Positions 34,801-55,337 of a stretch of DNA of 64,000 nucleotides are shown one piece after another (the first letter of the stretch is position 1; every line of letters begins with the position of its first letter). This stretch comes from a virus (lineage: Duplodnaviria; Caudoviricetes). The position numbers and the translations under genes are program-made. The notes beneath the pieces were generated by a model that was given only the letters and a program-made list of their open reading frames with translations, was not told the origin of the DNA and searched no databases. The stretch lies in IMG/VR virus record IMGVR_UViG_2830247124_000001, positions 44,995 to 108,994 of that record. One strand, written 5' to 3'.

Positions 34801-37800
34801 CCGTGCAGTCAACGCTTGGCGAGGACAATCAGGTGCCTGCCGTGCAGGAGACTGCACGAGAGACCCGTGACCAACTCAAGACGGAACTCGATGAGGAGTT
34901 CAAAAACCTCGTCGAGATGCGGGACTCCGACAGCAGCGACGCGGCCACAGGCGAGGACGTGACCACAGAAGACGCTACCACCGGCGAGGATGTCACTACC
35001 GGCGAAGACGTTACCACCGGCGAGGACGTGACCGGTGAAGACGTGACCGCAACTGATACGGATGTAGGCGAGGCGGATGTCGAAGCCCAACAAGATGTTG
35101 AGGATCCACTAAACGGCATCGAGCCAATGGGTGACCAAGAAGCCGGGGGTATTGACTATGGAAAAGGCAAGCTGGATGAATGGACGCAGGAAAATCCTGA
35201 CATCGAATCGGACACGGCAGAGAAACTTGAAAACGCGAGCAACGAAGAACTGGAAACGCTCGTGCGCAGCACGGCGGCCTTTATCCAGAACCGGCGCGTC
35301 ACGGGAAGTCAGCGCGACGTAGACAACGTCATCGAGACGCTGAAGGACAAAAAAGACGGTGATTCAGCAGAGGGGGACTTCCTAGTTACACAACTACCGG
35401 ATGCGATGGCGGCCCTTCGTGAACTGCGGCGACGGGCGCAAAAAGAAGCAGAGAAACAGGGGGACTCTACCTCGGCAGACTCAAATAATTCTACGAGTTC
35501 TGCCGAAGACACGGGAGGGACCGCAGAAAACCCCGGCGCGGAGACGGCCAACCAGCCGATCAGCAAGCAGATCGACCAGACCGAGTCTAGCCAGCGCGGC
35601 AACGACATAGACCCGGACCCCTCAAAGCAGACCTGGAGCCCAGCCGACCGTGGGGAAAGCGGCGACGTGATCTACGGCCCCCAAGACGAGCGGGCAAAGA
35701 TCGAAAGCATGAACCCCCCGTCCGGAGGCAATGGGGTTAGCTACGACGTCACTCCCGAAAGCGACGCCAACACCACCAAGACCGTCCAGAAGAGCGACGG
35801 ATGGACCAAGGTACACCCCGATGACAGGGGCGAGACGAAGACAAACCCCACACCTTCTGGGAATACCGGGAGTCCTTCGGTCAAGCAGCAGGTTGCCGAT
35901 GCGCTTGCCAACTTCATGGACAACACCCCGGAGGCCGTGCAGGACCGACGGCAGGAATTCAGCGACTCCCTCCCCAGTGAGTGGAGCGTCAACCGCGTCG
36001 TCCGTGACGCCAACGCCGCAGGCACAGTCTTCGAGCGGCAGATGGACGAAGGCGAGACAGCAGATTCACCGGTCGATTACTGGGAGGTGGAGACCCCGGA
36101 CGGGTCCTTCCTTCTCCCCCAGCCGCAGCAGGGTGGGTTCAATGAGTTCGGCAACGTGGACGACAATGCAGGCACCAACAACGACATCAACTTCGGCGTC
36201 GAGGAGGATCAGGCCGTTTCAGACCCCTCGTCTATCGAGCCGGTACCCACCGAAGACATAGTTGGGACGCAGACGGAAAACACCTCAGACACGCAGAACA
36301 CCGATGAGGCAGATACTGGAGACGCCGAACCCCAGGGCAGCCAGAGCGCGGTAGACAACGTGAAAGAGACGTTCATGAACTTCCTCTCTTCTGAGGACAC
36401 GCGCACCAAGAGCTTTGAGGAGTTCAAAACCTTCGTTGAGGAGAACCTCAGTGGCGCTACCGCCAAGCAGGTAGAGTACGCCAGAGATAAGGCAAACATG
36501 CAGGTAGTGGAGGACGCCGACAATGGCGTTCCATACTATCAGGTCGATTACAACGGAGAGTCCTACGTCTTCCCGAAGCCTCTCAACGACAATGAGCTTG
36601 ACCGGGTGGGCACTATATTTGATGGAGACGCCCGTTCAATTGACGAGATCACTGACGTTACCCCCGCGACGTTAGAGGGTGGTGGGCCACTGGTTTCGGA
36701 GACCGGTTCTGTGAGCACGGCCTCCTCTGAAGCAAGCTCGGACTCTGGAGAGACGAGCACGGAAGATAACCAGACTGAAGATAGCGGCACCGAGGATACC
36801 GGTGACACTAGCCAGGACACCGACCAAGACACTGACCAGGACACAGAGACTGACGATACGGAGACTGACACCGAGGGCGACACGTTTGAAGAGAGGGAGT
36901 CGTTCACAGACTTCGCTGAAGAACTCGGCCTCGGGGACAGATACGGATTCCTGCACAAAATTGCGGATAACCTGAATCCTCTGACAGTCCGGTTGGCAGA
37001 TGAGAGCGAGTTTAGTGCCGACACGACAAACGCGGTCTACGATCCGGAGAGCCGCACCATTTACGTTAAGAGAGGCCGTTCGGCGGAAGAGGTCAACGAG
37101 ACGCTGGCCCACGAGATCGTCCACGCGATTGCCGTGGCTGAAGGCGCGTACAACACCAGCAAGGTAAAGAAGGAGGCCAAGACAATTGCCAGCGATGTGG
37201 TGGCGAAGCTCGAAGAGCGGGCCAAAGAAGTTGCCGAGAGAGACAACATCGAGTCCCTCGATGAAGGCCAGACTCTTCTGGGCAAGGCCGAGCGCCACCT
37301 CAACGGCATTGCGCGGAAGGTGGCAAGTGGGGAGATGGACTTCAGCGAGATGTTCACCTACGCGCTGACGGACCCGGACATTGCTGCGGTCCTGGACAGC
37401 CTGCCCGCAGAGCGGGACGTCTCCACAAGCGACACGATGTGGACGAAGATGAAGAACATCATCAAGGACGCTATCGCGTCGGTCGCCTCCAAGTCTCGAT
37501 TCGTGGGCGAGGACGTCGGCCCCAGCGAGCTTGACCGGGTCGAGTCGCTTCTGAACATCAACGAACTAGCCCCTGATGGCGCACTGGAAAACGAGAGCTT
37601 CAAGCAGGAGCTTGACCGGAAGCAGCGGAAGCGCAAGCGACGTGTGGAGGATGGCCGGGTCTCTCAGTCCGCCGCCGACCAGACATGGAGCACCTCCGAC
37701 GAGGACATCCTGTTCGGCCCGGACGGCCAGCGAGGGACCGTGCAGAAGAGCGCGTTCGGCACGTTCGACGTGCTGACCGAAAGCAACGGACTGGTAAAGG

Positions 37801-40800
37801 TCGAGAAGGACAGCGGGTGGACAAAGATCCCGCAGGACTCGACTCAGGAGGCCGCCGAAGACAACCAGTACATGCAGAACGAGGGGGACCATGTGGCCAC
37901 CCCGATGAAGACCGCAGAGTCGGCAGATCCCGGCAACGCAGATGAAGCCATTACAGACGACCCGGTCGTGTACCGCTCGGCCTTGAAGGCGGCTGAGGAG
38001 AATGGCACCCCGGTGCGCGTGATAGAAAATGGGTCGGGCTCCACGACCGAAGAGGAGGTACTTGTCCTGGACGAGTCCGGACGAGAGGTTGACTCCATCA
38101 CCCGCACGGAGCTTAAAAACAACTACGGAATCACGGAAGGCACCCAGGTTGAATCCCCGTCTGACAGGAACCTCACCTCAGAGGAGATCAGCCAGATTAG
38201 CGCGGAGTTCAGCGCATTTCTCGACGAGACCGACGCCGACCTGAGCGACCCCTCCGAGGTCCAGGAGGCGTACGACGAGTACCGCAGTGGAGACGGAGAC
38301 GTCGAGGTCCAGACCCGAACCGTTTACGCGGAGACGGTCGGCGGCAAGACGGTGATCCGCCAGAACTCCTCCGACGCCGTTAGCGACGCCCGCACAAATT
38401 CGGTCACAAAGTACCGCGTGTTCAACGTCGGTGGGGCCGAGTTTATCACCCCGACGAAGCGCGGCAACAGCTACGCCGGGACGGCCCTCCTCTCCGAGTT
38501 TGGCAATGCGGACTACAGCAACCAGACGTTCGACCCGGCAGTCACAACCCCGGTCGAGCCCTACACCACCCTGATCGACGCTACTGGCCAGAGGGTAGCG
38601 ATGGGGTACGGCACCAGCATTCAGCACCTTCTCGACCAGGAGAACGGGGCGAAGCAGGCGAAGACAGTAGGCGAGTTGACGCTGACCAATGACCCGGAAA
38701 CGCGGCCTTCGGTCAAGGAACTGAAGGACGAGTACCAGCGGCAAGACAGCACAGTCTCGGAGGCTAAGGAAAAGATCGCCGAGATTGAGTCGCAGGCCAA
38801 CAACCCAGAGGAAAATAGCTCTTACCAGGAGGCGCAGGGCAGGCGGCAGGAGGCCATGGAAAACAAGAAAGCTCTGGTCGAGCACCTGGAAAACCGCATC
38901 TACGACGGAAACCGCAAGTACGAGGGACGTGGAGAGGACGTGCTCAGTGGCAGAGAAGGGCCGTCCAACACCACACGCCGGGTATCCAGTGGCCGACAGG
39001 TACTGGAAAGCCAGGAGGCTTCAGAGACCGCAGAGCGCTCCGACGCACGAGAAGAGGTGCGCCAGTTGCTTGGTGAGGAGAGTCTCGGGATGCGCCCGGA
39101 GGCTGTCCGGAAGGTCACCGAGCAGCTTCGCTCGATGTGGGCCAACATGCCGAAGGTACAGGTTCTGGGCTTCGCCTCGGAGCTACCAACGCACGTCAAG
39201 AAGAAGGCGGGCGCGAGGCTCGGCGCAGTGGAGGGACACTACGACCCGGTTTCCGGAAAGGTGTTCTTGGTTAGCAACAACCTTGCTACCGCCCAGCACG
39301 CGGCGAAGGTTGCCCTGCACGAGATCGCCGGTCACCATGGGCTCCGCAATGTCATTTCTGCGGAGCAGTTCAACCCGGTCATGAAGGAGGCATTCCGCGC
39401 ACTGGAGGGACAGGTCCTTGAGTCGGACGGCACGCTACGCCGAGCAGAATCCGGCGAGCGGGAAAGCACGCTTCTCCGGGTCGTCTCCAGGGGACGCGAC
39501 ATAGACCTCTCCACAGACGAAGGCAAGGCCGCCGCCGCAGAGGAAGCGATGGCCCGCCTTGCAGAGACCGCCCCGCAGACTACGGTTCTGGCCGACGTCT
39601 GGAACAAGATTTACCGCATGGTGCGGCGGGCAATCAGGCCGGTGGCCAACGCCGCCGGGTTCGACGAGATGACCATGTCGGACGGAGAGATCCGCTCGAT
39701 CCTGGCCAATGCGCGAGGGTCTCTCGGGACAAAGGGCACGACCTTCACCATCGGGTCGGACACGACCGCCGAGCACCCCTGGCACGAGATGGGCTTCAAA
39801 ATGTCGGGCCCGACCTACTACAGCCGCATGGCTGACGTTATCTTGAACCCGGACGACAAGGTGAACCAGAAATTCCGGAACGGCAACGAGGTCTCCCCCT
39901 CCACCATGAAGAGCCTTCTGGAGTCGGTCCAGAACGGGCGCTTCAAGAAGGCAGAGCTTGAGGCCATCGGCATCATGGACTGGCTCGATAGCCTGGAGGA
40001 AGACGTCGGTCTGGAGGATGTCCAGGAGTTTATCGAAGAGCACCAGATCCACATCGAGGAAGAGGTTGTCCTGTCGAAGGAAGAGAACCGGCTCAACCGA
40101 GCAGACCGGGCGCTGGAGGAGGCCAGACAGCAGGTCACCGACGCGGAAAACGAAGCCGAGCAGGCACAGGAAACGCTCGACAGTGAGTCCTACGAGATCA
40201 CGCAGGAGCTTATCTCAACCCTCGAAGAGGAGTTCAACACAGACCGCGCCGAGAGCGTCGGCGCAAGCCTGCAAGGGGTCGTTGACCAAGCCGTCAGCCA
40301 GAACGACCCGTCGATGATCGTTGACCTCCTGGACGACCTTGGTGACGTGAGCGATGAGGTCACCGGCCACATGATGGACATGTTCAGTCTGGTGGAAACG
40401 TACCTCGGGGCCCAGGAGAGGCTTTCTGAGGCGCGGGAGCAGATGAGCGAGGCAGAAACCGAACAGCGGCGAGCCCAGGCAAATTACGACGAAGCCGTTG
40501 AGAGGGACCGGTGGATGAACATTCAGTATTCGACCTACGGCCTCGACGGTGGAGAAAGCCCGATGAACATCGTGCTTCGCCTTCCGGATACCGTTGCCAC
40601 CCGGCGCATTGAGCGGAAGATCGCGGACATCGACGGGCGTCTCGAAGACATCGTGGACACCGACCGTGCGGACGTGACCGCCGAGGAGCAGGAAGCTCTT
40701 CAAGAGCGCTACGACCAGTTGCGCCAGGAGAAGAGAGACCTGACTCAGCAGTTGGAGAACGAGCAGTATAGCACAAGCCACTTTGAGGACAACAACGTCC

Positions 40801-43800
40801 TGGCCCACATCCGCACCAACGTCCGGGAAGTGAACGGCTTCAAAACCCTATTCGTCGAGGAGATTCAAAGCGACTGGGTACAGGACGGGAGAGACAAGGG
40901 CTTCCGGAAGACACAGATGGAGGCCGAAGAGAAGGTCAGTGAACTGATGGAAGAGCTTGACGCTTTGGAGGAAGAGCGGCGAGAGATCGTTGACAACAGC
41001 ACCTTCGAGCGCACCGACGAGCAGCAGGCCCGCCTGGACGAGAACCGCAGAAAAGAAGAGGATCTCATAAACGAGGTCCAGGAACTCAGGGACGTCGCGG
41101 AAGGAACCAGCGACAGCGTCCCGGACCTTCCGGACGTGCTGAAGCAAAACTGGTACAACTTGACCGCCAAGCGCGTGATGCTACACGCCGCGAAAAATGG
41201 GTTCGATACCGTTGCCTGGACCACCGGCGACCAGCAAGCTGACCGGTACCACCTTGGCGACCAGTTTACAGAGTTGCGTTACGAAGAGGGTCGCCTGACG
41301 GGCGTGAAGGAGTACAACGGTAATGAAATCAGATTCAACCTTGAAGAGACCGCATCAGGCATTGGGGAGCAGACCGCACTGGAAGACATCGTGGGCGAGA
41401 CCCTGGCCCAGGATCTACGACAGGAATACCAGCGCACCGGCGAGGAGGTAACGCGGTCCGGGCGCGAGGAGATCGACAACGTAGACCGGCGCAATGGGAT
41501 GCAGGAGTTCTACGACAACAAGCTCTGGAACGTCTTCTCCGACTTCACCGAGAAGTACGGCGGGCAGGCCGCACCGGCAGAGTCTGGTGAGTTTGCAGTT
41601 GGCCCGAATGGAGAAAACAACGTCCACGCCGCCACGGTCCCGGAGGAGATGAAGAACCAGCTTCCGGAGTCCGGGGTCCCGCTCTTCAGCCTCTCAAGCA
41701 GCCAAGTCACGAGCGAGAACTTCAAGGAGTGGTTCGGAGACTGGCAAAACATCGGGGAGCGCTCCAGCAGGGCCGTCGATCAGACGACCGGCGAACCGCA
41801 GGTCTATTACCACGGGACGTCACAAGACTTTGTGGAGTTTGAGAGCGAAACGGGATTGCGGTGGGCCACGCCTAGCTCCAAAAACGCACAGACCTACAGC
41901 GAACGCAGCGCAGAGAAAACAGACGGCACGGGCCAAAACATTATGCCTGTCTTCGTCAACACGAAGAACCCGCTTATGCTGATGGAGCTTGGCCACCGCG
42001 CTTCGCTTCCGGAGATCGTCGCAGAAATCAACCGGCAAACGCCCCAGGACAATAACATCATTGCGGAAACCCAGCAGAGCTACCAGGACATCCAACTTGC
42101 GATGCTGGACAACGGGATTCCCAGAGACGTTCTCTCCCAAGAGCAAATCCCCGTGTTCGCCGTGGTCGAGTCGGGGGGCATTGCCGGAACACTAAAAGTG
42201 TCGGGCTTCGACGGCATTCAGCTTACCGATATGGACAGCGACGGGATGGTCCACGAGGCAATGGCGACCTTCGAGAAGAGCCAGTTCAAGTCCGCCACCG
42301 CCAACAACGGCAACTTCTCGGACGGAGAGGGCAACATACTCAAGTCCGAAAACGCCGAAGAGGTCTCCGAGTCCACCGGCGCTTCGGATAACTTGGGCCG
42401 GGACCGCGAGGGCCCTGGCGCAGAGTCCCCGCTCAACCCCGAGACAATTGTCGGAGAGATCCGCAATATGCTCTCCCAAATGAAGGTCGTCGGCAGCGAG
42501 GCCCACGACCGGGTGAAAGACTTCTTGATCGAGCGCGGAGAGCAGGCGATGGTGGACCCCAATGGCCGGATCGTGATCGAGAGCTTCCAGGACGTCCGGA
42601 CGATCTCCGAGATGGTCGGGGAGTACCTCTACTACGAGTGGCGGGATGCCATCCAGGGGGACTTGATGGCCGCCAGTCCCGAGCAGATTAGCGCCGCCTT
42701 CGAGGAGCTTGAAAATATCGCCCGCAACATCGACCGCGTGAACGATGAGATGGACGCGGAGGCTGCCCGCACGCTTGCGTTCTCGAAGCTCTTGGGCGAC
42801 CACCTTCTTCGGGGGCGCGACACGAGCGGCGTGGCACCTGAACTCACAAAATTATTTGAGAGCTTCGCCGATAAGTACAACCTGGAGCAGAACTTCTACC
42901 ACGTCCAGGACATGTTCCTGTCGCTCGACGACCAGGGGAAGCTCGACCGGTTTGACGCGAAGGTTGCGATGACCGAAGAGAATGGTTCGATAGGCAAGGA
43001 GGTCTTCAAGGACCCGGTTGGCGCTGCGAAGGAGTGGATGCAGGAGGCCAGCAAGTGGGCCCTGAAGAAGCAGGAGCAGTGGTACGAGATGATGTACGAC
43101 CAATACTACCCGATCTACGTCATGATGAGGGACATGAACGGCGGCGCGATGCCCGACACCGTGGAAGAAAACTTCTACCTCCACGCCCGAATGCAGCACG
43201 GGGCCGAGGCTCTGGCAAAGGTATTCTTGGAGAACGGAGTCCGTACCCTCGATGGCCGGTCGCTAGGCAACAGCATGACCGACGCGCTTGCCCCCGTTTC
43301 CGAGACGCAGCGCATGTACCGAGACTTCGCCCGGTACGCCGTTGCTCGGCGAGCGAAGGAGCTTCACGAGCAGAAGCGCCGCGACGAAGACGCCGAAGGG
43401 CCGAGCCGACCCGACGACTTCGAGGTCAAGATCCCGGAGGACGAGGCCGACGCGAAGATAGAGCAGCTTTTCGCTGACGAGTCAGAGACCTTCCAGCAGG
43501 GCACCGAAAACGAGCGAAGTGGCCTTAACTACAACAAGAGCGACTTCGAGCAGGCATTCAAAGACCTCCAGGAGTACAACAGCGCCCTCCTGGACTACGC
43601 CGTAGACGAGGGCTACCTCAACGAAAACGAAGCGGACGCCATGAAGGAAATGAACAAGGCGTACGTCCCGTGGCAGCGTGTCATGGACACCGACGAGGCG
43701 AAGAAAAATGTAGACGCTGGGTCCGACGATGGGCTCGACGTCTTCGAAGGTGGGTCCAAGGACCTCGTAATTGACAACCCGCTGAAGAGCATCGTCGCCA

Positions 43801-46325
43801 ACACCCACAGCCTGCTGCGGGAGATCCACCGCAACCGGATTTACGAGGGTCTCTACAGGAACATCCCGACAAGCACAGGCGACAACGGCAGGAACAACCT
43901 CACCGGGTCTTACGCCCGAGAGGTCGCCCCGCCGGAAGAGCGCATCAACTACACGGTTGAGAGCGTCGTGCAGAAGCTCACCAACGAAGGGGTTGATGAG
44001 GAACAAGCCAAATCGGTCCGGGAGACCATTACCGACGAGAACGGAGAGCTTCTCTCGTTCTTCGTCCCGAAGAAGTTCAAGGGGTCCAATGGGTCACCAG
44101 ACGACATCGTCCGGGTCATGGTCGATGGAAAAGAGCGCTGGATGCAGGTTGAGGCCGAGTTCGAAAACGCGCTCGGGAACGGAGACACCAACGCTTCGAA
44201 GATCGCCCAGGGGCTGAATGGAGCCCCTGTTGCGGAGACGTTCAGGTCGATGGCAAACGCCTTCCGTGGGCTTGTCACATCGGAGAACCCGATCTTCGGC
44301 GCACTCAACCTATTCAGAGACCTTCCGACCAGAGCCATTCAGACATTGTCTCAAGGACCAGCCGAGGCGATGGTCGGCATGTTCGGAGCCCTGGAGATCG
44401 GTAGGAACTTGGTAAAAAAGGATAATGGTAACTACGACCAGCTTATGGAGGACTTCCTGACCAGCGGTGCAGGAATGGCCACCTTGTCGATGGTCGAGCG
44501 CCAAACCGCCCAGGACGCAGACAGCGTGCGCCGAGCCGCCGCTGGCGGAAAGAGCCAGGGAGCAGGCATACAGGACATGTTGTCCGCGTTCGAGACCTAC
44601 GCCCAGGAGAAGAAGGAGGGCGGAAACCCCTCCCTTATGAACGCGCTGAAGCAGGGCCTGGGCCGCCTCAGTCCGCGACGGGCCAGCCAAAACTTCAACA
44701 ACGCCCTAGAAAATGCCAACCGGGTCAAGGAATTCAAGGAGGTCCGGAGCAACGTGATGAAGGAGAAGGCCGCCAAGTACGCCGAGGAGAACAACGGCGC
44801 AGAGCTTGCCAACGACCAGGAGGCGTTGAGGAAGGCCAAGCGTGAGGCGGCCCTCAAGGCCGGTCTCCGGGCCCGAGAGGTCGTGATCGACTTCTCCCGT
44901 ACCGGAAGCTGGGGCCGGATTGCCAACCGCTACGTTCCCTTCTTCAACGCGGCCCTCCAGGGGTACGACGTCGTGAAGCGAACCATCCGACAAAACCCCG
45001 GTCGGGCCGCGAAGATGATCGGACTGACGCAGGTCGTCCCCTCGATATTCGTTGCCGCACTGAACGCAGGCAACAAGTATTACGAGGAAGAAGACGACTT
45101 TACGAAGGACCGGTTCTGGCTTCTGCCCAACCCTGCCGGGGACCACGACTCGGAGGGCACGGCCATGGACTTCATCCGGATTCCGAAGCCCCACATCTAC
45201 GGGGCGTTCGGCTCGGCAGTTGAGCGGTTCGTCAACTACGGAATGAAGGAAGGGCACATTAGCGAGGGAGACCTCCTCGGCCTGCTGGAAGGATTCGGCG
45301 ACCGCGTTCGGCGCGGGCAGGAGTCCGGATTCGTCCAGTCGGTTGGCGCTCAGTTGCCGTTCAACGTAGCCCGACCAATCGAAGAAGGGCCGGTCCGTGG
45401 GACGGCACTCTCCGCGATTGACTTCTTCGGTGTCCACCCACTTCTAACAGTTGGAGAGCACGCGGTCAACTACTCCGTCTTCCAGGGCCGAGAGATCGTT
45501 CCAGAGGGAGACAAGAGCCGGTTGGAGCCCTACCTCACCTATTCGGAGACTTCCTCTAAGACCGCACGAGAGGTGGCCGACGCGGCAAATCAGATGGGCG
45601 TTCAGATGTCTCCCCGAGTGGTGGACCATTACATCGACGGCCTGTTTGGCACCGGTGGACGGATTGCGGTTAGCTCCATCTCGGACAACGCACTCAACGC
45701 CACGACCGGCGCAGACTCCGACAACATCAAGACGATCAAGAACAAGGCTGTCCAGGAGCTTCAGTCCGGAGAGGCAGACCCGTCGGAGCTAAAGATGAGC
45801 TACGAAGGATACAAGCCCGACGGCAGGCGGGAGACCTCCACCCTATCGTTCCCGGACCTTGGGTTTATGATCGACCCGCTGACCAAGAGCTTCGTTGCCG
45901 GGGACCAGTTCCGTGGCAGCAAGTCGGTGTCTCGGGCCTACCGGCACGTCAACCGCGCTAAGAAGAAAGCCAGCAGCCTCGAAGACATGGTCAAGAAGGG
46001 CCGCCCGAAGAGCGAAATCCGAGAGTACATCGAGGACAACCTCCTGGCCATCCAGCTAGGTGGGGCCGGGTCTGAGGGCGGCGGCCTCGCCAGCGACGTG
46101 AGGCAGGAGCTTATGGACCTTCAGAACCAGAAGAAGAAGCTGCTCGGTGCTGGGTTCGACGAGAAGAGCGCGACTGAGAAGCTGGGAATGCTGCAAGGCA
46201 TCTGGCTCAAGCAGGTCGAGATGACCAGAGACTTCAACGAGAAGGTCAACGGCGAGATGGACAAAATCCACGAGGGCAAGATCGATACCGGCGAGATTGC
46301 CGACGACGTGGTCAGCGACCTGTAA
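31878..46325 (+). CDS. Giant polyvalent/ejection protein (4815 aa) with two zincin-like motifs, an ADP-ribosyltransferase-like domain and an LPD38-like C-terminus
   Basis: HEIVH (37110-37124); HEIAGH (39318-39335); FVEEIQSDW (~40851); FKEWFGDW...YYHGT...IMPVFVNTKNP (~41720-41970); IDFSRTG...YVPFFNAALQG...FIRIPKP (~44885-45190). Confidence 0.85.
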   Translation: MPTPNNQNSSSNQNSSTAQTDEEPSPDGGNYYGPSEDPLDELRGQNGEPTPSNSTGSSDGTKIDPANSPALYESLGVDPLDFGQEIQETDGGTERVETKPQTVDTSTDPIDRNTEQILNAAANGNMPEAPEVDVEPLERPDDSGPLHFTRKWFGEELQETMDPSNLAGFNDMSDKEVINYVAEQRPDFVERGVIDPENPKESLQNVDQYFRKRVQQRQRKTAHGTYFPELRNHLVATTGKEATEASDEKLVKMYADKHYENQGPTDVADVIDDMIADGKKRQEDMMENSDNVQRASSPKEFIDLTNKLEQHHENAEKEGFKPDMVVTYTDPDTGADLMFASPERADRYQKKMRNRSLDRVDRGPIEEFLVGATARAGIDMADLFTEIGQYGVRVANQAGAETEDTVNAMEDFQKNMQSIRQSGSVRQSDDIGDLEVYEEDDSWYMPSGGALTDANWWASTVGEVTGLSVPGIGAAGAGMKLGSKLFKGMKFFGRASRLEKIQDAGKLVNKAEVTDGMIRKAKGLEMAAKTGTAAAMYEMPLETGEALKTLYRENDNPSAGEQAIAIGSGLVSGWIGTIGDAAFADALKKSLGREFGEEIPDAAKKSATRAVMSRLGTEVKKFGGTLPVETSTEITQEVTKDVAKQFSTEGYDSFEAFWEDNREKYAEVTAGSIGLTAFMGGIGAGPSSVRAGMKGMKEHSIGVLEQMHDDEALAEYGGFGFYERRRGKGLEVRVEASRLQDKETIENVRQRFEEENVDGDVDIEVFNGTRRVEKVSGFGELLKKTPEIMRKVKRGDAVKVDGMNLSPSRIDAVEDPGTEPQTSATEGRRNQYETPLGRTYEGENAKERANEAAKHEKYEGSVIEDGGTKYLISRVRTGEDGGDPQFTGKALDGSGDTISPSEISDDQVVSWRSQTQDIDSELTQELDDVSGIDLVNPDEQTQKDVISLVDGALDRGDISEEKAEELKGKMRQYRAVQSTLGEDNQVPAVQETARETRDQLKTELDEEFKNLVEMRDSDSSDAATGEDVTTEDATTGEDVTTGEDVTTGEDVTGEDVTATDTDVGEADVEAQQDVEDPLNGIEPMGDQEAGGIDYGKGKLDEWTQENPDIESDTAEKLENASNEELETLVRSTAAFIQNRRVTGSQRDVDNVIETLKDKKDGDSAEGDFLVTQLPDAMAALRELRRRAQKEAEKQGDSTSADSNNSTSSAEDTGGTAENPGAETANQPISKQIDQTESSQRGNDIDPDPSKQTWSPADRGESGDVIYGPQDERAKIESMNPPSGGNGVSYDVTPESDANTTKTVQKSDGWTKVHPDDRGETKTNPTPSGNTGSPSVKQQVADALANFMDNTPEAVQDRRQEFSDSLPSEWSVNRVVRDANAAGTVFERQMDEGETADSPVDYWEVETPDGSFLLPQPQQGGFNEFGNVDDNAGTNNDINFGVEEDQAVSDPSSIEPVPTEDIVGTQTENTSDTQNTDEADTGDAEPQGSQSAVDNVKETFMNFLSSEDTRTKSFEEFKTFVEENLSGATAKQVEYARDKANMQVVEDADNGVPYYQVDYNGESYVFPKPLNDNELDRVGTIFDGDARSIDEITDVTPATLEGGGPLVSETGSVSTASSEASSDSGETSTEDNQTEDSGTEDTGDTSQDTDQDTDQDTETDDTETDTEGDTFEERESFTDFAEELGLGDRYGFLHKIADNLNPLTVRLADESEFSADTTNAVYDPESRTIYVKRGRSAEEVNETLAHEIVHAIAVAEGAYNTSKVKKEAKTIASDVVAKLEERAKEVAERDNIESLDEGQTLLGKAERHLNGIARKVASGEMDFSEMFTYALTDPDIAAVLDSLPAERDVSTSDTMWTKMKNIIKDAIASVASKSRFVGEDVGPSELDRVESLLNINELAPDGALENESFKQELDRKQRKRKRRVEDGRVSQSAADQTWSTSDEDILFGPDGQRGTVQKSAFGTFDVLTESNGLVKVEKDSGWTKIPQDSTQEAAEDNQYMQNEGDHVATPMKTAESADPGNADEAITDDPVVYRSALKAAEENGTPVRVIENGSGSTTEEEVLVLDESGREVDSITRTELKNNYGITEGTQVESPSDRNLTSEEISQISAEFSAFLDETDADLSDPSEVQEAYDEYRSGDGDVEVQTRTVYAETVGGKTVIRQNSSDAVSDARTNSVTKYRVFNVGGAEFITPTKRGNSYAGTALLSEFGNADYSNQTFDPAVTTPVEPYTTLIDATGQRVAMGYGTSIQHLLDQENGAKQAKTVGELTLTNDPETRPSVKELKDEYQRQDSTVSEAKEKIAEIESQANNPEENSSYQEAQGRRQEAMENKKALVEHLENRIYDGNRKYEGRGEDVLSGREGPSNTTRRVSSGRQVLESQEASETAERSDAREEVRQLLGEESLGMRPEAVRKVTEQLRSMWANMPKVQVLGFASELPTHVKKKAGARLGAVEGHYDPVSGKVFLVSNNLATAQHAAKVALHEIAGHHGLRNVISAEQFNPVMKEAFRALEGQVLESDGTLRRAESGERESTLLRVVSRGRDIDLSTDEGKAAAAEEAMARLAETAPQTTVLADVWNKIYRMVRRAIRPVANAAGFDEMTMSDGEIRSILANARGSLGTKGTTFTIGSDTTAEHPWHEMGFKMSGPTYYSRMADVILNPDDKVNQKFRNGNEVSPSTMKSLLESVQNGRFKKAELEAIGIMDWLDSLEEDVGLEDVQEFIEEHQIHIEEEVVLSKEENRLNRADRALEEARQQVTDAENEAEQAQETLDSESYEITQELISTLEEEFNTDRAESVGASLQGVVDQAVSQNDPSMIVDLLDDLGDVSDEVTGHMMDMFSLVETYLGAQERLSEAREQMSEAETEQRRAQANYDEAVERDRWMNIQYSTYGLDGGESPMNIVLRLPDTVATRRIERKIADIDGRLEDIVDTDRADVTAEEQEALQERYDQLRQEKRDLTQQLENEQYSTSHFEDNNVLAHIRTNVREVNGFKTLFVEEIQSDWVQDGRDKGFRKTQMEAEEKVSELMEELDALEEERREIVDNSTFERTDEQQARLDENRRKEEDLINEVQELRDVAEGTSDSVPDLPDVLKQNWYNLTAKRVMLHAAKNGFDTVAWTTGDQQADRYHLGDQFTELRYEEGRLTGVKEYNGNEIRFNLEETASGIGEQTALEDIVGETLAQDLRQEYQRTGEEVTRSGREEIDNVDRRNGMQEFYDNKLWNVFSDFTEKYGGQAAPAESGEFAVGPNGENNVHAATVPEEMKNQLPESGVPLFSLSSSQVTSENFKEWFGDWQNIGERSSRAVDQTTGEPQVYYHGTSQDFVEFESETGLRWATPSSKNAQTYSERSAEKTDGTGQNIMPVFVNTKNPLMLMELGHRASLPEIVAEINRQTPQDNNIIAETQQSYQDIQLAMLDNGIPRDVLSQEQIPVFAVVESGGIAGTLKVSGFDGIQLTDMDSDGMVHEAMATFEKSQFKSATANNGNFSDGEGNILKSENAEEVSESTGASDNLGRDREGPGAESPLNPETIVGEIRNMLSQMKVVGSEAHDRVKDFLIERGEQAMVDPNGRIVIESFQDVRTISEMVGEYLYYEWRDAIQGDLMAASPEQISAAFEELENIARNIDRVNDEMDAEAARTLAFSKLLGDHLLRGRDTSGVAPELTKLFESFADKYNLEQNFYHVQDMFLSLDDQGKLDRFDAKVAMTEENGSIGKEVFKDPVGAAKEWMQEASKWALKKQEQWYEMMYDQYYPIYVMMRDMNGGAMPDTVEENFYLHARMQHGAEALAKVFLENGVRTLDGRSLGNSMTDALAPVSETQRMYRDFARYAVARRAKELHEQKRRDEDAEGPSRPDDFEVKIPEDEADAKIEQLFADESETFQQGTENERSGLNYNKSDFEQAFKDLQEYNSALLDYAVDEGYLNENEADAMKEMNKAYVPWQRVMDTDEAKKNVDAGSDDGLDVFEGGSKDLVIDNPLKSIVANTHSLLREIHRNRIYEGLYRNIPTSTGDNGRNNLTGSYAREVAPPEERINYTVESVVQKLTNEGVDEEQAKSVRETITDENGELLSFFVPKKFKGSNGSPDDIVRVMVDGKERWMQVEAEFENALGNGDTNASKIAQGLNGAPVAETFRSMANAFRGLVTSENPIFGALNLFRDLPTRAIQTLSQGPAEAMVGMFGALEIGRNLVKKDNGNYDQLMEDFLTSGAGMATLSMVERQTAQDADSVRRAAAGGKSQGAGIQDMLSAFETYAQEKKEGGNPSLMNALKQGLGRLSPRRASQNFNNALENANRVKEFKEVRSNVMKEKAAKYAEENNGAELANDQEALRKAKREAALKAGLRAREVVIDFSRTGSWGRIANRYVPFFNAALQGYDVVKRTIRQNPGRAAKMIGLTQVVPSIFVAALNAGNKYYEEEDDFTKDRFWLLPNPAGDHDSEGTAMDFIRIPKPHIYGAFGSAVERFVNYGMKEGHISEGDLLGLLEGFGDRVRRGQESGFVQSVGAQLPFNVARPIEEGPVRGTALSAIDFFGVHPLLTVGEHAVNYSVFQGREIVPEGDKSRLEPYLTYSETSSKTAREVADAANQMGVQMSPRVVDHYIDGLFGTGGRIAVSSISDNALNATTGADSDNIKTIKNKAVQELQSGEADPSELKMSYEGYKPDGRRETSTLSFPDLGFMIDPLTKSFVAGDQFRGSKSVSRAYRHVNRAKKKASSLEDMVKKGRPKSEIREYIEDNLLAIQLGGAGSEGGGLASDVRQELMDLQNQKKKLLGAGFDEKSATEKLGMLQGIWLKQVEMTRDFNEKVNGEMDKIHEGKIDTGEIADDVVSDL
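34942..35050 (+). repeat. In-frame tandem repeats encoding (T)TGEDV
   Basis: ATGEDVTTEDATTGEDVTTGEDVTTGEDVTGEDVT; 15-18-nt degenerate units. Confidence 0.85.
42844..42859. promoter_or_regulatory. 16-bp palindromic motif, copy 6, intragenic (TCACAAAATTATTTGA)
   Basis: Embedded in the giant CDS using AT-rich codons ACA AAA TTA TTT. Confidence 0.6.
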
Positions 46326-51739: not shown

Positions 51740-52006
51740 TTACCGCTCGGGCCAGTCGTCAATAGGGGTTAGGCTCCCGCCACGGTGAACCGTCTTTACG
51801 CCACTCAATCCCCAAGAGCCGTCGGAGTATTCGTAGTTGCTGATCTTGTAGGCGGGCTTTTCGGTGGTCCCCTCCATATCCATTCCTTCTCCGTCGTGGC
51901 CGCTGGAAGAGACAGTTCCGCTGGTCTGTACCTTCGAGATGCGCCCGTAGGTGTCTCCGGACCACCGGACCTTTGTGCCTTTGTTGAGATCGCTTTTGGA
52001 AGCCAT
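51740..52006 (-). CDS. DUF2945/HVA1 Tudor-like protein
   Basis: KGTKVRW, GRI, PAYKI and VHRGGSL pattern. Confidence 0.65.
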   Translation of the reverse strand: MASKSDLNKGTKVRWSGDTYGRISKVQTSGTVSSSGHDGEGMDMEGTTEKPAYKISNYEYSDGSWGLSGVKTVHRGGSLTPIDDWPER

Positions 52007-52046
52007 AGTTAGAATTTGGTTTTGTAGTGAGAGAAGATTTTCAAGT

Positions 52047-53024
52047 CTACGCTTTCTCCTCGATCAGAGAGACGATCTCCTTCCGCTCTTCGGGGTTCTC
52101 TCGGAGCCACTCCTTCGTGTTGCCTGCCCCCTGGGCAATGGTGTCTCCGTCTCGCTTGTACCAGGACCCGGCCTTGTCGATGATACCGTGCTCCGTGGCA
52201 AGATCGATGATCTCGCTGAGGCGGGATATTCCCTCCCCGTAGATCAGTTCAAACTCGGCCTTCTTAAACGGGGCGGCCACCTTGTTTTTCTTGACGCGCA
52301 CACGGGTCTCGTTTCCGATGATGTCCCCGTCGCTGTCCTTGACCGCACCGATCCGCCGGATGTCCAGTCGCACCGAGGCGTAGAACCGCAGGGCCTTTCC
52401 CCCAGAGGTGGTCTCCGGATTGCCAAACATCTGGCCGACCTTCATCCGGATCTGGTTGATGAAGATGAACGCAGTCTTCGTGCGGTTCATCGTGCCGGTG
52501 AGCTTCCGCAGCGCTTGGCTCATGAGGCGGGCCTGGAGCCCGATGTGCGAATCACCCATGTCACCCTCAAGCTCTGCCTGCGGCACGAGAGAGGACACAG
52601 AATCGACAACGATAACGTCGAACGCGCCGCCCCGGACCAAGGCGTCGGCAATTCCGAGGGCCCGCTCTCCGTTCTGTGGTTGGGAGATGTAGCAGTTCTC
52701 CACGTCCACCCCAATGGACTTGGCGTACTCGGTGTCGAAGGCGTGCTCTGCGTCGATGAACGCGCAGGTGCCTCCTTCCTTCTGGGCCTCTGCAATGACG
52801 TGGGTGGCCAGGGTCGTCTTGCCCGAGGACTCCGGGCCGAAGATTTCGGTGATGCGCCCACGGGGAAGTCCGCCCACGCCGAGGGCCTCGTCCAGCTTCA
52901 AGGATCCGGTGGAGATCGTGTCAGGGTCGTCCCCCTCGTCGTCCAGTCGCATCAGGGACTCTTCCCCAAACTCGCGTTCGACGGCGTCGAGGGTCTCTTG
53001 TAGGGCTTCTTCAGTATCGGACAT
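52047..53024 (-). CDS. recA: Recombinase RecA
   Basis: [45 protein letters not shown] and [10 protein letters not shown] motifs. Confidence 0.98.
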
Positions 53025-53561: not shown

Positions 53562-54011
53562 TTACACGTCCGTCGCGTCGGAGAACTGATCGACGGACTT
53601 CCTGATGTACTCGTAGACCAGTTCACGGCTGAGTCGCAGGTCCGAGTCAACTGACCAGGAAGAGTTTTCCCCAGGGGCAGGATCTCCAGCCGGGACGTTC
53701 TCTTCTGCCTTCCACACGCGCTTTCCGTAGCGGACGAGCACACCTGTCGCATACTCCGTGGAGTTGTCCCATTCCGGAATCTGGGTCAAGTCCGGTACGT
53801 CGAAGAACCGCTCGAAAAGCTCCCCCCGAATGGTGAACCGTTTCTGATCCATCACCCCTCTTTGCGGGTTGTCTTCGCGGGCCTGCTTGTCCTTGTATCC
53901 CTTGAGGTGGACCTGGGCACGCCCGTTTTCCCAGTCGATGTCCACTTCTACGAGACGCCAGTACGTCGCGTCGTATCCGGAGGATTGCGTGATTGCTTTT
54001 GAAAGAGCCAT
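53562..54011 (-). CDS. Hypothetical protein with inserted CBM5/12-like module
   Basis: IPEWDNSTEYATGVLVRYGKRVWKA...PGENSSW. Confidence 0.7.
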   Translation of the reverse strand: MALSKAITQSSGYDATYWRLVEVDIDWENGRAQVHLKGYKDKQAREDNPQRGVMDQKRFTIRGELFERFFDVPDLTQIPEWDNSTEYATGVLVRYGKRVWKAEENVPAGDPAPGENSSWSVDSDLRLSRELVYEYIRKSVDQFSDATDV

Positions 54012-54059
54012 TTTGTTGGGGTAAAATTGAGGTTAGAAAATAATATCGAACTATGTCAG

Positions 54060-54596
54060 TGGAGATGGCGGGAGTTGAACCCGCGTCCACCTTGCATTGC
54101 ATCATCCGTGATACGACCATTCCACCACTCTCAATTTCGCCCGTCTGCGGCAGATGGCAGCCGCTATCGTAGGGACGTAGGCTACGTTCCTCTTCCGTTT
54201 CACGTCGAGGCTCGATGACATAGCCGCCATAGGGTTTGCCGATTGAGTGTCACCACGGCACCCATCTCATTGTCACTTTCTCCCATCCCGGCGTGAGCCT
54301 ACTTAGGAGCGAGAGTGAAATGGTTATCTATCGGCGTCGAGGCCGTGATGGCTGTGCTTACGCACTAACGAGGGTGTCCTCCTCCTCGACCCGACCGACG
54401 TCCGCGTGAATGCGGTCCATCGCGTCGGAGAGAAGGTCACCGCCGAGCCCAGTCTGTCGGGCGTCTTCAGCAGTACCTTGGTTGTTGGCACCTAAAATTC
54501 CTCGATTGTTTTGTAGCTAAAGCTACCGGCCACTTCGAGGGAAAGGCCAGGTCGTGGGAATCAGCGCCGACAAAGCGTCGAAGCCGTGTCATCCCC
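54060..54596 (-). ncRNA. ssrA: tmRNA (one-piece, 537 nt, CCA not encoded)
   Basis: 5' GGGGATGACACGGCTTCGAC and 3' GGACGCGGGTTCAACTCCCGCCATCTCCA; acceptor stem GGGGATG/CATCTCC with G3-U and discriminator A; P2 pairing ACGACC/GGTCGT; tag frame present. Confidence 0.93.
54358..54489 (-). other. tmRNA tag reading frame (43 codons)
   Basis: Resume context TTTTAGGT-GCC-AAC-AAC; encodes ANNQGTAEDARQTGLGGDLLSDAMDRIHADVGRVEEEDTLVSA*. Confidence 0.75.
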
Positions 54597-54712
54597 ATGT
54601 TCATTTTCTGTCGGAGACCTAACTTTCGGTTTTCCTTCGTGAGGTTTGCCTCCGTGTCTTCGTGTGTATTGGTACCCGTTTATTTGGAACTTGTTTCAAG
54701 AATTCAATTCTG

Positions 54713-55273
54713 TCATATCAGAAATAGTGAAAGCAGTGTTAAGCCAACCGGAACATGCCAAAGCAAGCCGTGGCGAGTCCCGTGCTCGTACCGGTCCTCG
54801 TTCCATGGGAAGCTGAACTGCCCCCAGAGCCCAAAGCTCATGAGCGCAACCGGCACGTAAGCCGACAGACCAGACGTGTATGAGACGACAACCAGAATGG
54901 CCACGCCCCACCCAGCAAGGTGCTTGAAGCTGTCTGTCTGGTGGAGGTAGTTGTAGTAGAAGAGCCAGACGTTTGCGGCCACCAGAGGGAGAGAGATGTA
55001 AGCCGTAGCCGAAACGCCAACCGCGCTGTAAAGCAGAACGAGGAAAATCCCCGACACGACCATCATCATCCCAAGCTCGTCGAACCGCCGCCCAAGCACG
55101 TCTTCACGCTGGTGCCACGCCCAGGATCCTCCACAAAGAACAAGCGCCGGTCCAACGAGAAGAAGCCTCTCGCCGGTGCCCAGAGTCGGGGCAAAAAGAA
55201 AGAGAAGGAAAGCGAGGTTTGTCCACTCATCTGCGGTGGGCAAGCTGTAGTTTACGTCACCAAGTGTAGGCAT
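54713..55273 (-). CDS. Polytopic membrane protein, CREST/alkaline-ceramidase-like
   Basis: Multiple TM segments; SWAWH (SxxxH), FDELGM and HGLLWH motifs. Confidence 0.65.
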   Translation of the reverse strand: MPTLGDVNYSLPTADEWTNLAFLLFLFAPTLGTGERLLLVGPALVLCGGSWAWHQREDVLGRRFDELGMMMVVSGIFLVLLYSAVGVSATAYISLPLVAANVWLFYYNYLHQTDSFKHLAGWGVAILVVVSYTSGLSAYVPVALMSFGLWGQFSFPWNEDRYEHGTRHGLLWHVPVGLTLLSLFLI

Positions 55274-55299
55274 ATTTCAGTCGGGGTCTAAAAGTGAGA

Positions 55300-55337
55300 A
55301 TGCTTCTGAGTGAATGCTTCTGATTGGATGCTTCTGA
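55300..55337. repeat. Three direct repeats of ATGCTTCTGA with 14-bp period
   Basis: Copies at 55300, 55314 and 55328; intergenic. Confidence 0.85.

What the first reader, a model, noticed from the sequence alone, without database searches (positions are those of the whole stretch)
54060..54596. Oversized phage tmRNA with a 43-residue tag
Seen: a complete tRNA(Ala)-like domain enclosing 537 nt. After a plausible resume context (UUUUAGGU-GCC-AAC-AAC) the frame runs 43 codons: ANNQGTAEDARQTGLGGDLLSDAMDRIHADVGRVEEEDTLVSA*. Known: tmRNAs are usually ~350-400 nt with tags near 10 residues ending in an Ala-rich degron. Inference: the canonical AN- start and hydrophobic/Ala end are kept, but ~30 acidic, helix-prone residues lie between them. 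The phage may therefore rewire trans-translation to append a mini-domain that changes protease routing, solubility in high salt or partner binding. No smpB is in the window, so host SmpB is presumably used.
Basis: partly seen in the sequence, partly recalled or inferred. Interest (0 to 1): 0.85.

Follow-up and report, generated by a model that had tools for sequence, protein, structure and literature searches.

The report
Oversized phage tmRNA, long acidic tag
A 109-kb phage from hypersaline waters carries its own ribosome-rescue RNA (tmRNA) that is about half again as long as usual and encodes a 43-residue acidic tag instead of the usual ten or so; related phage tmRNAs keep similarly long tags, so the long tag is probably translated and useful to the phage.

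Summary
Rfam finds a complete tmRNA (59.2 bits, cut-off 47) on the minus strand at 54057-54596. After pseudoknot 1 a frame of 43 codons runs from GCC (54489-54487) to UAA (54360-54358). The record is a complete 108,994-bp phage with terminal repeats, no SmpB and no tRNA.

Seven further genes from phage and metagenome contigs share its scaffold. In the 8-gene alignment, 30 of 45 core pairs show compensatory changes. Seven of the eight have clear tags of 28-43 residues. In the closest pairs the tag is the best-kept part, and 3 of 3 changes are synonymous only in the proposed frame.

The likely hosts are Rhodothermales or Salinibacteraceae. Their tmRNAs measure 316-406 nt and carry 9-10-residue tags.

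ARAGORN misses 7 of the 8 family genes. That may be why the group has gone unnoticed.

The idea has a precedent: mycobacteriophage Bxz1 has a 25-residue acidic tag, and other phage tmRNAs have tags of 24-34 residues.

What the long tag does is untested. The options include another protease, an adaptor, solubility, or something else. I rate it a new variant of a known kind, of moderate to high interest.

The parts
54057..54596 (-). Whole tmRNA gene (540 nt as matched by Rfam; 537 nt from G1 to the discriminator at 54060). CCA is not encoded.
   Evidence: RF00023, 59.2 bits, full model; length; 3' end read from the sequence.
54590..54596 (-). Acceptor stem, 5' strand. The third base forms the G-U pair that marks alanine identity.
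   Evidence: 7 of 7 pairs formed in 8 of 8 sequences, G-U at pair 3 in 8 of 8, and 3 pairs with compensatory changes.
54061..54067 (-). Acceptor stem, 3' strand. The discriminator A is at 54060.
54570..54577 (-). Helix P2a, 5' strand. It pairs with 54088-54095.
   Evidence: 7 of 8 pairs have changes on both sides.
54088..54095 (-). Helix P2a, 3' strand.
54550..54556 (-). Helix P2b, 5' strand. It pairs with 54112-54118.
   Evidence: 5 of 7 pairs have changes on both sides.
54112..54118 (-). Helix P2b, 3' strand.
54500..54549 (-). Pseudoknot 1. Stem 1 is 54545-54549 with 54527-54531. Stem 2 is 54535-54540 with 54500-54505. A roughly 12-nt insertion at about 54511-54526 is found only in this gene.
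   Evidence: stem 1: 4 of 5 pairs covary. (stem 2: 5-6 bp in 7 of 7 genes, with different sequences). (insertion absent from the other 7 rows).
54487..54489 (-). Resume codon GCC (Ala), 10 nt after stem 2 of pseudoknot 1.
   Evidence: aligned to the consensus resume codon. (the spacing is 8-11 nt in 7 of 7 family genes).
54358..54489 (-). Tag reading frame of 43 sense codons plus the UAA stop (54358-54360). No in-frame start codon lies upstream. The peptide has 10 Asp+Glu, 3 Lys+Arg and pI 4.07.
   Evidence: (AlphaFold on the single sequence: helices 4-13 and 15-42, mean pLDDT 77).
54354..54365 (-). Small hairpin of 4 bp with the stop codon in its loop. This is my reading of the sequence, and it is not supported by covariation.
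   Evidence: Read; inference.
54251..54350 (-). Pseudoknot 2 region. The outer stem is 54342-54350 with 54251-54259. The 5' side carries the motif that defines the family.
   Evidence: 9 pairs, 100% paired, 3 covary. (motif used to find relatives).
54268..54322 (-). Strain-variable insertion inside pseudoknot 2. A nearly identical strain has 24 other letters here, and the G006 gene lacks the segment altogether.
   Evidence: joint 54267 to 54323 with 24 letters between, in run X3. (gap in G006 and L126).
54068..54084 (-). T arm: stem 54080-54084 with 54068-54072, and a 7-nt loop.
   Evidence: 5 pairs, 100% paired, 4 covary.
54616..54653 (-). Conserved sequence block 20-57 nt upstream of the mature 5' end. 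It is shared with the genes of G007, L087, L122 and L133. It may be a promoter or a leader element; its function is unknown.
   Evidence: upstream regions printed side by side; compared by eye, no statistics.

Best explanation
This is a working, phage-encoded tmRNA that relies on host factors.

Inferred from the standard tmRNA pathway:
- The transcript is trimmed and receives CCA from the host enzyme.
- Host alanyl-tRNA synthetase charges it with alanine through the G3-U70 pair.
- Host SmpB and EF-Tu bring it to ribosomes stalled on broken mRNAs. The phage has no smpB.

Shown by the sequence and by comparison:
- Translation would resume at the GCC codon, 10 nt after pseudoknot 1.
- It would add 43 residues and end at UAA, which frees the ribosome.
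- The tag is four times the usual length, acidic and helix-prone, and ends in an alanine codon.
- Its peptide sequence, not only the RNA, is under selection in the family.

Inferred function: the phage keeps ribosomes available during infection and marks the rescued products with its own tag. My best guess (about 0.3) is that the tag is a degradation or handling signal read by a different host protease or adaptor than the host's 10-residue tag, as with the long Lon-specific tag of Mycoplasma.
For: 1. Full-length Rfam match above the cut-off.

2. Seven further genes share the scaffold. Over 45 core pairs in 8 sequences, 98.1% of cells pair and 30 pairs change on both sides. None of 500 shuffles reaches this, and slid controls pair at 35.6-42.5%. 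The G3-U70 pair is present in 8 of 8.

3. Pseudoknot 1 stem 2 forms in 7 of 7 genes with different sequences, and the resume codon lies 8-11 nt after it in all 7.

4. Seven of the eight genes have clear long frames at the same place: 43, 36, 36, 35, 28, 28 and 28 codons. All end in an alanine codon followed by a stop. The eighth, L120, is an outlier; ARAGORN gives it a 24-residue tag.

5. Between L087 and L133 the tag has 2 mismatches in 87 nt, against 71 in 425 aligned nt elsewhere in the gene (Fisher p = 1.4e-4).

6. All 3 substitutions seen in close pairs (L087/L133 two, G006/L126 one) are synonymous third-position changes in the proposed frame. They change the amino acid in the other open frame.

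7. The tag peptides of the window and G006 align better than 1999 of 2000 shuffles. For G007 and L087, none of 2000 shuffles reaches the real score.

8. Near-identical and about 5-10% diverged copies in hypersaline metagenome runs keep the frame. The only listed indel inside the tag is a 3-base deletion, while the 5 listed single-base indels in the gene lie outside the tag.

9. No SmpB is found in this phage or in 3 other phages with long tags. SmpB is present in 3 of 3 candidate host genomes.

10. Precedent for a long tag read by another protease: passages of PMC8403727 (27-residue tag, mainly Lon).
Against: - No expression, charging or tagging data exist. No RNA run was listed that holds the stretch.
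- The Rfam score is low (59 bits, against 94-193 bits for Rhodothermales genes). The model alignment marks many non-standard pairs in pseudoknots 3 and 4, so the 3' half is only partly validated.
- ARAGORN does not call the gene.
- For the window's own tag, peptide-level evidence rests on one distant homolog (G006) plus a few metagenome variants. Of the variants, 1 is synonymous and 2 change the residue, and that table was cut (174 differences and 7 indels not shown).
- The strongest selection signal comes from the other subfamily (L087/L133).
- Tag similarity between the two subfamilies is not significant: 62-201 of 2000 shuffles reach the real score.
- Tag length varies from 28 to 43, so part of the tag may be a tolerant spacer.
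- A second frame is also open across the region in the window and in G006.
- The host is inferred, not shown.
- The phages encode no ClpP, Lon or RF-1-type protein that could point to a partner.
- The proposed role of the tag has no direct support.
Confidence: 0.7

Rival explanations
1. The real resume codon lies further 3' in the same frame or in another frame. The tag would then be of ordinary length, and the 5' part of the frame would be untranslated spacer.
For: Several in-frame alanine codons lie inside the frame. Tag length varies from 28 to 43 in the family. ARAGORN does not confirm the resume site.
Against: The Rfam alignment puts the consensus resume codon on GCC 54489-54487. The spacing of 8-11 nt after pseudoknot 1 is kept in 7 of 7 genes. 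The N-terminal halves of the tags are conserved as peptides with synonymous differences in G007 and L087. The window and G006 tags also align over their first halves.
Confidence: 0.07
2. The gene is a decoy. Its tRNA-like domain soaks up host SmpB or blocks host trans-translation, as reported for the tRNA-like-domain-only gene of mycobacteriophage DS6A. The reading frame would not matter.
For: The phage has no smpB and must compete for the host's. Passages of PMC4131195 and PMC11915505 report that a DS6A-like molecule inhibits tmRNA. The body of the RNA is divergent and carries insertions.
Against: A decoy needs neither pseudoknot 1, nor a resume context, nor an open frame. Here all are kept with covariation. 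The frame is the most conserved part of the gene in one subfamily, with only synonymous changes.
Confidence: 0.08
3. It is a decaying passenger copy of a host tmRNA picked up by the phage. Random insertions lengthened it and it no longer works.
For: The first 21 bases are identical to those of many Rhodothermales tmRNAs. The Rfam score is low. A strain-variable insertion sits in pseudoknot 2.
Against: Related genes occur in phages that share few or no proteins: 11 of the window phage's ORFs match G006 and 5 match G007. These genes show compensatory changes in all 7 core helices and intact long frames. None of the 46 bacterial tmRNAs with the same 5' end has the family's pseudoknot-2 motif. Decay would break pairs and frames rather than keep them.
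Confidence: 0.05
4. The tmRNA works, but the long tag is not a degradation signal. Possibilities:
- It keeps truncated proteins soluble in a high-salt cytoplasm.
- It occupies or inhibits host proteases.
- It recruits a phage factor.
- It gives rescued products a new activity.
For: The tags are acidic (Asp+Glu 10 of 43, 10 of 36 and 8 of 35) and helix-prone. The penultimate residue is not alanine in any of the 4 distinct tags, unlike the host tags. Long acidic tags recur in unrelated phage tmRNAs: Bxz1, and L230 and L285. Recurrence across lineages suggests a phage-specific use.
Against: The tags keep a C-terminal alanine and a nearby non-polar residue, as degradation tags do. Long acidic tags also occur in phages whose proteomes are not markedly acidic (G001, G006), which argues against pure salt adaptation. 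No partner was found.
Confidence: 0.25

Closest known systems
tmRNA of mycobacteriophage Bxz1 and its relatives (listed among phages with ssrA in PMC4131195)
   Same: It is phage-encoded and full length, with no phage SmpB reported. Its tag is long, acidic and helix-prone: ARAGORN finds a 435-nt gene with a 25-residue tag, 7 Asp+Glu and no Lys+Arg.
   Different: It is a separate RNA lineage and lacks the pseudoknot-2 motif of the present family. It is shorter in both gene (435 against 540 nt) and tag (25 against 43 residues). ARAGORN detects it, and the host phylum differs. Bxz1 also has many tRNAs and an RF-1-domain protein, whereas the window's phage has neither.
Standard bacterial tmRNA (Rfam RF00023) of Rhodothermales and Salinibacteraceae, the likely host clade
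   Same: The architecture is the same: tRNA-like domain, P2, pseudoknot 1, resume codon, tag frame, later pseudoknots. The first 21 bases are identical in 51 genome loci, 32 of them named Rhodothermia-lineage taxa. The last 29 bases are identical to one Rhodothermia genome.
   Different: Host genes listed over the cut-off measure 316-406 nt and score 58-193 bits, against 540 nt and 59 bits here. Host tags have 9-10 residues in 46 of 46, against 43 here. The pseudoknot sequences are unrelated, and the family motif is found in 0 of 46.
Long ssrA tag of Mycoplasma (27 residues, read mainly by Lon; passages of PMC8403727)
   Same: The tag is much longer than the common 10 residues, and its length goes with a change in the protease that reads it.
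   Different: It is bacterial rather than phage-encoded, and its sequence is unrelated. The protease that reads the present tag, if any, is unknown.
tRNA-like-domain-only tmRNA of mycobacteriophage DS6A (passages of PMC4131195 and PMC11915505)
   Same: It is a phage gene derived from tmRNA that must act through host SmpB.
   Different: DS6A lacks the mRNA-like part, while the present gene has an enlarged one.

Membership tests
tmRNA (Rfam RF00023, standard one-piece form) | Score at or above the family's gathering threshold over the whole model | tested here: met
   59.2 bits against 47, model positions 1-374.
tmRNA (Rfam RF00023, standard one-piece form) | tRNA-like domain: a 7-bp acceptor stem joining the 5' and 3' ends, a G3-U70 pair and a T arm | tested here: met
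   All 7 acceptor pairs and 5 T-arm pairs form. G-U is at pair 3 in 8 of 8 family genes, with compensatory changes in both helices.
tmRNA (Rfam RF00023, standard one-piece form) | Long helix P2 linking the tRNA-like domain to the body | tested here: met
   P2a and P2b together have 15 pairs, and 12 of them change on both sides.
tmRNA (Rfam RF00023, standard one-piece form) | Pseudoknot 1 directly upstream of the resume codon | tested here: met
   Stem 1 covaries. Stem 2 has 5-6 bp in 7 of 7 genes, and the resume codon lies 8-11 nt after it.
tmRNA (Rfam RF00023, standard one-piece form) | Internal frame without a start codon that begins at an Ala or Gly codon and ends at a stop, encoding a tag with a non-polar, alanine-rich end | tested here: met
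   The frame runs from GCC to UAA over 43 codons. The last codon is alanine in all 4 distinct tags. The length is atypical, and the penultimate residue is not alanine.
tmRNA (Rfam RF00023, standard one-piece form) | Pseudoknots 2-4 downstream of the tag | tested here: inconclusive
   The outer and inner stems of pseudoknot 2 are supported (13 pairs, 7 covary). Pseudoknots 3 and 4 are aligned by Rfam with many non-standard pairs, and I did not model them.
tmRNA (Rfam RF00023, standard one-piece form) | Partner protein SmpB is available | tested here: met
   SmpB is absent from the phage and present in 3 of 3 candidate host genomes. That the host's SmpB is the one used is inferred.
tmRNA (Rfam RF00023, standard one-piece form) | Charged with alanine and adds the tag to stalled nascent chains | not testable with these tools
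   This needs biochemistry or proteomics.
Phage tmRNAs with long tags (informal group: this family, Bxz1, and others) | Encoded on a phage genome that lacks smpB | tested here: met
   The record is a complete virus with terminal repeats and has no SmpB.
Phage tmRNAs with long tags (informal group: this family, Bxz1, and others) | Tag of more than about 20 residues with a net negative charge | tested here: met
   43 residues, 10 acidic against 3 basic, pI 4.07.

The most novel reading that the evidence does not exclude
Phage tmRNAs with long acidic helical tags form a recurrent, overlooked class. In this class the tag is not a copy of the host's degradation signal but a phage effector peptide. 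By out-competing host tmRNA for SmpB, the phage would put its own roughly 30-45-residue helix on every rescued nascent chain. That helix might dock to, or jam, a host protease or adaptor, or recruit a phage factor. Ribosome rescue would then double as a host-takeover or anti-defence device, for example against defence nucleases that cut mRNA and stall ribosomes.
Probability: 0.2. Interest if true: 0.85.

Novelty: new variant of a known kind. Interest (0 to 1): 0.62.

Why it matters
Phage-encoded tmRNAs are known, but they are usually mentioned only as extra ribosome-rescue capacity.

This work adds three points:
- A structurally validated family has tags three to four times the normal length.
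- The peptide itself, not only the RNA, appears to be under selection.
- Similar long acidic tags recur in unrelated phage tmRNAs, Bxz1 among them.

Together these suggest that phages tailor what happens to rescued proteins, which can be tested with reporter fusions. The 43-residue tag is longer than the 27-residue Mycoplasma tag that PMC8403727 calls unusually long.

There is also a practical consequence. ARAGORN, the tmRNA finder used in the huge-phage survey (PMC7162821, methods passage), misses 7 of the 8 genes of this family. Phage tmRNAs are therefore probably under-counted, and those with long tags most of all.

Tried and rejected
Steps that led nowhere or were set aside:
- ARAGORN on the window and at relaxed thresholds gave no valid call.
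- Exact search in viral contigs for the resume region: 0 hits.
- RecA-based relatives: 9 loci, none with a tmRNA within the flanks. One of them, G001, has an unrelated low-GC tmRNA elsewhere, for which ARAGORN gives a 23-residue tag. G001 shares only 2 ORFs with the window's phage in my tblastn.
- The pseudoknot-1 pattern found one chance hit in a coding region, L081.
- The family motif matched 61 metagenome loci. 56 were chance matches without tmRNA ends. 5 were real: L087, L120, L122, L126 and L133.
- L120 is an outlier. ARAGORN reads a 24-residue basic tag, and its resume site is ambiguous to me.
- The tag peptide searched against cultured phages by tblastn gave no match.
- The ESM Atlas look-up of the tag gave a best score of 0.83, below the level that means anything.
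- ClpP, Lon_C and RF-1 domains were found in 0 of 4 phages.
- No RNA holder was listed for the stretch, so nothing can be said about expression.
- Parts of the stretch without contig cover in single runs are not interpreted.
- Proteins shared between the long-tag phages are nucleotide-metabolism enzymes (dUTPase, ThyA, RecA and others). None suggests a tag partner.
- I did not use complex prediction, because I make no binding claim.
- Literature searches found no paper on long tags in phage tmRNAs. Subscription journals and supplements were not visible, and the tmRNA database tables of PMC11915505 may already list such tags.
- One search used coordinates that I had guessed, which cut four genes wrongly. 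I discarded it and repeated the alignment with computed coordinates.
Full report
**Observation.** Rfam's tmRNA model (RF00023) matches window 54057-54596 on the minus strand over the whole model. The score is 59.2 bits against a gathering score of 47, E 1.3e-20, and it is the only Rfam hit in the 64 kb. Read on the minus strand, a frame starts at GCC 54489-54487 and runs 43 sense codons to UAA at 54360-54358. ARAGORN finds nothing at default or relaxed settings and makes only a spurious 208-nt call at its lowest threshold.

**Anatomy.**
- The 5' and 3' ends form a 7-bp acceptor stem (54596-54590 with 54067-54061). Its third pair is the G-U pair that marks alanine identity.
- A T arm follows at 54084-54068.
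- The discriminator is A. CCA is not encoded. The same holds for 29 of 46 bacterial tmRNA genes with the same 5' end, so this is not unusual.
- Helix P2 has two parts: 54577-54570 with 54095-54088, and 54556-54550 with 54118-54112.
- Pseudoknot 1 has stem 1 at 54549-54545 with 54531-54527, and stem 2 at 54540-54535 with 54505-54500. It ends 10 nt before the resume codon.
- After the stop comes the outer stem of pseudoknot 2, 54350-54342 with 54259-54251.

The extra length over a standard tmRNA has three sources. The tag frame accounts for about 100 nt. An insertion of about 12 nt sits in pseudoknot 1. A larger insertion sits in pseudoknot 2.

**Genome context.** The window is the last 64 kb of a 108,994-bp virus record with direct terminal repeats, rated complete.
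- Phage genes in the window include the small and large terminase subunits, an endolysin, a bacterial-type RecA, dNMP kinase, thymidylate synthase, dUTPase, SSB and exonucleases.
- The tmRNA lies in the minus-strand block of replication and nucleotide-metabolism genes.
- The whole phage has no SmpB.
- ARAGORN finds no tRNA in it.
- It has no ClpP, Lon or RF-1-domain protein.

**Relatives.**
- The first 21 bases occur in one other viral contig, G007, which is 263 kb.
- A neighbouring protein led to G006, a 198-kb phage with terminal repeats that carries a 486-nt tmRNA with the same pseudoknot 1.
- A degenerate pattern from the shared pseudoknot-2 region matched only G006 and G007 in viral contigs.
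- The same pattern matched 61 metagenome loci. 5 are tmRNA genes and 56 are chance matches.
- The family therefore has 8 genes of 430-540 nt.

Over 45 pairs in 7 core helices, 98.1% of cells pair and 30 pairs show changes on both sides. None of 500 shuffles reaches these values, and sliding the partners by 1-3 columns drops pairing to 35.6-42.5%. The structure came from RNAalifold on the same alignment, which favours it somewhat.

The phages that carry these genes share little. 11 ORFs of the window's phage match G006 and 5 match G007, mostly nucleotide-metabolism enzymes. ARAGORN misses 7 of the 8 family genes and finds no tmRNA in the whole records of G000, G006 and G007.

**The tag frame.** In 7 of 7 genes with a clear tag, the resume codon (GCC or GGC) lies 8-11 nt after stem 2 of pseudoknot 1. 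The frames have 43, 36, 36, 35, 28, 28 and 28 codons, giving four distinct peptides. Their pI is 4.05-4.87, and every frame ends in an alanine codon followed by a stop.

The eighth gene, L120, is an outlier. ARAGORN reads a 24-residue basic tag.

Evidence that the peptide is under selection:
- Between L087 and L133 the tag region has 2 mismatches in 87 nt. The rest of the gene has 71 in 425 aligned nt (Fisher p = 1.4e-4).
- Both of those changes, and the single change between G006 and L126, are synonymous third-position changes in the proposed frame.
- In the other frame that is open there, the same changes alter the residue.
- The peptides of the window and G006 align better than all but 1 of 2000 shuffles. 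For G007 and L087, none of 2000 shuffles reaches the real score.
- Between the two subfamilies the similarity is not significant.

AlphaFold on the single peptide gives helices at residues 4-13 and 15-42 with mean pLDDT 77. This is weak evidence, because isolated peptides are often drawn as helices.

**Natural variants.** Runs labelled hypersaline lake, brine and saltern metagenomes hold the stretch or close relatives of it. I laid contigs of four runs from four studies on 53600-55300.
- One contig of run X3 covers 54323-54765 with 5 differences and no gap, so the whole frame is intact in a near-identical strain.
- Inside the tag, the listed changes are one synonymous substitution (54367), two that change the residue (54372 Leu to Val; 54374 Thr to Asn) and one deletion of exactly 3 bases (54373).
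- The five listed single-base indels within the gene (54293, 54313, 54316, 54502, 54540) all lie outside the tag.
- The tables were cut: 174 differences and 7 indels are not shown. These counts are therefore partial.
- The segment 54268-54322 is replaced by 24 other letters in a near-identical strain. Part of the gene's length is thus strain-variable.

**Host and host tag.** The 21-base 5' end occurs in 51 genome loci:
- 32 are named Rhodothermia-lineage taxa (Salinibacter, Salinivenus, Longimonas, Longibacter, Rhodothermales and related names).
- 9 are labelled only Bacteroidetes or Bacteroidota.
- 8 are Gammaproteobacteria.
- 2 are other taxa.

I could cut out 46 of these genes. They are 343-403 nt long, and ARAGORN gives tags of 9-10 residues for 46 of 46. 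None has the family's pseudoknot-2 motif.

In 151 genomes of the order that holds Salinibacter, 136 have a tmRNA over the cut-off. The matches listed over the cut-off measure 316-406 nt and score 58-193 bits. SmpB is present in 3 of 3 candidate host genomes.

The host assignment is an inference. It rests on the shared tRNA-like domain, the hypersaline habitat, and an acidic proteome (Asp+Glu 16.4% against Lys+Arg 10.8%).

**Wider pattern.** The 119 new loci break down as follows:
- 38 had a 3' end by my rule.
- 14 were cut short by the contig end.
- 67 had no end that I could recognise.

Four of the 38 were false ends. Of the remaining 34 genes, 6 have tags of 24 residues or more, two of them doubtful. 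Many of the short-tag genes may be host genes at provirus borders; I did not separate them.

Mycobacteriophage Bxz1 is long listed as a phage with ssrA (PMC4131195, passages). It has a 435-nt gene with a 25-residue tag holding 7 acidic and no basic residues. It does not share the present family's scaffold. Long acidic tags therefore recur in separate phage tmRNA lineages.

**How it most likely works.** The standard steps are inferred from the established tmRNA pathway: processing, CCA addition, alanylation through G3-U70, delivery by host SmpB and EF-Tu, resumption at the codon after pseudoknot 1, and release at the stop. The comparison above supports the parts of the RNA that these steps need.

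Why the tag is long is open. I favour a fate signal read by a different host protease or adaptor than the host's own tag. The analogy is Mycoplasma, whose 27-residue tag is called unusually long and is read mainly by Lon (PMC8403727, passages). I put this at about 0.3. A role other than degradation is about as likely. Decoy, pseudogene and short-tag readings are each unlikely, for the reasons given under the rivals.

**Novelty and literature.**
- In PMC11915505 I read passages only. They give 10 residues as the most frequent tag length and mention tags as short as 2 residues. They say nothing about long phage tags.
- PMC7162821 (passages) reports tmRNAs in huge phages, found with ARAGORN.
- My searches found no paper on long tags in phage tmRNAs.
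- Supplements and subscription journals were not visible, so the database tables may already hold similar entries.

I therefore rate this a new variant of a known kind. It is a new RNA family of phage tmRNAs with the longest tag I could document here, but the idea has a precedent in Bxz1.

**Limits.**
- There is no expression or biochemical evidence.
- The family is small.
- Pseudoknots 3 and 4 were not modelled.
- The host is inferred.

Noticed in passing
window 31878-46325 (+) and 15305-24937 (+): Two giant ORFs of 4815 and 3210 residues lie in the structural-gene block. The larger carries ART-PolyVal (ADP-ribosyltransferase of polyvalent proteins) and LPD38 domains, so it is a polyvalent protein of the kind thought to be delivered with phage DNA. 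The other has only a weak PKD match.
   Followed up: partly
window 4026-6908 (+): The large terminase ORF has 960 residues. Its N-terminal third also matches primase and helicase-loader families. In cultured phages the best matches to that part are annotated variously as helicase, terminase or DarB-like. 184 Salinibacter ruber M8 phage records match at under 60% identity.
   Followed up: no
window 52047-53024 (-): A bacterial-type RecA (Pfam RecA 420 bits) lies 1 kb from the tmRNA. A longer ORF on the opposite strand (51951-53003) overlaps it and is probably spurious.
   Followed up: partly
window 54616-54653 (-), and upstream of the tmRNA genes in L011, L087, L122 and L133: A sequence block 20-60 nt upstream of the mature 5' end is shared by tmRNA genes of otherwise unrelated phages. 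It may be a promoter or a leader that travels with the gene (compared by eye only).
   Followed up: no
whole record G000: The phage has a tmRNA but no tRNA gene by ARAGORN. By contrast G007 has 47 tRNAs and G001 has 16.
   Followed up: no
G007:C1:151425-151500 (-): ARAGORN reports a tRNA with anticodon CTA in the 263-kb phage G007, which would read the amber stop codon. This could mean stop-codon suppression or recoding in that phage.
   Followed up: no
L012 1501-1902 (+) = G001:C1:98210-98611: An unrelated low-GC (38%) phage has a 402-nt tmRNA scoring 57.8 bits. ARAGORN reads a 23-residue acidic tag. The Rfam alignment would allow a start about 9 codons earlier.
   Followed up: partly
L292 5060-5494 (+) = NC_004687 100059-100493: The RefSeq record of mycobacteriophage Bxz1 shows no tmRNA feature in this stretch, although ARAGORN finds the gene between two tRNA genes.
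   Followed up: partly
L230, L231, L273 and L285 (viral contigs): Four more phage-contig tmRNAs of ordinary length (361-412 nt) have tags of 24-34 residues. ARAGORN missed two of them, and I read those by script.
   Followed up: partly
G149:C69:14608-14923: One Rhodothermales genome has a second, shorter tmRNA-like match (316 nt, 58.1 bits) beside its normal gene. It could be a prophage or island copy.
   Followed up: no
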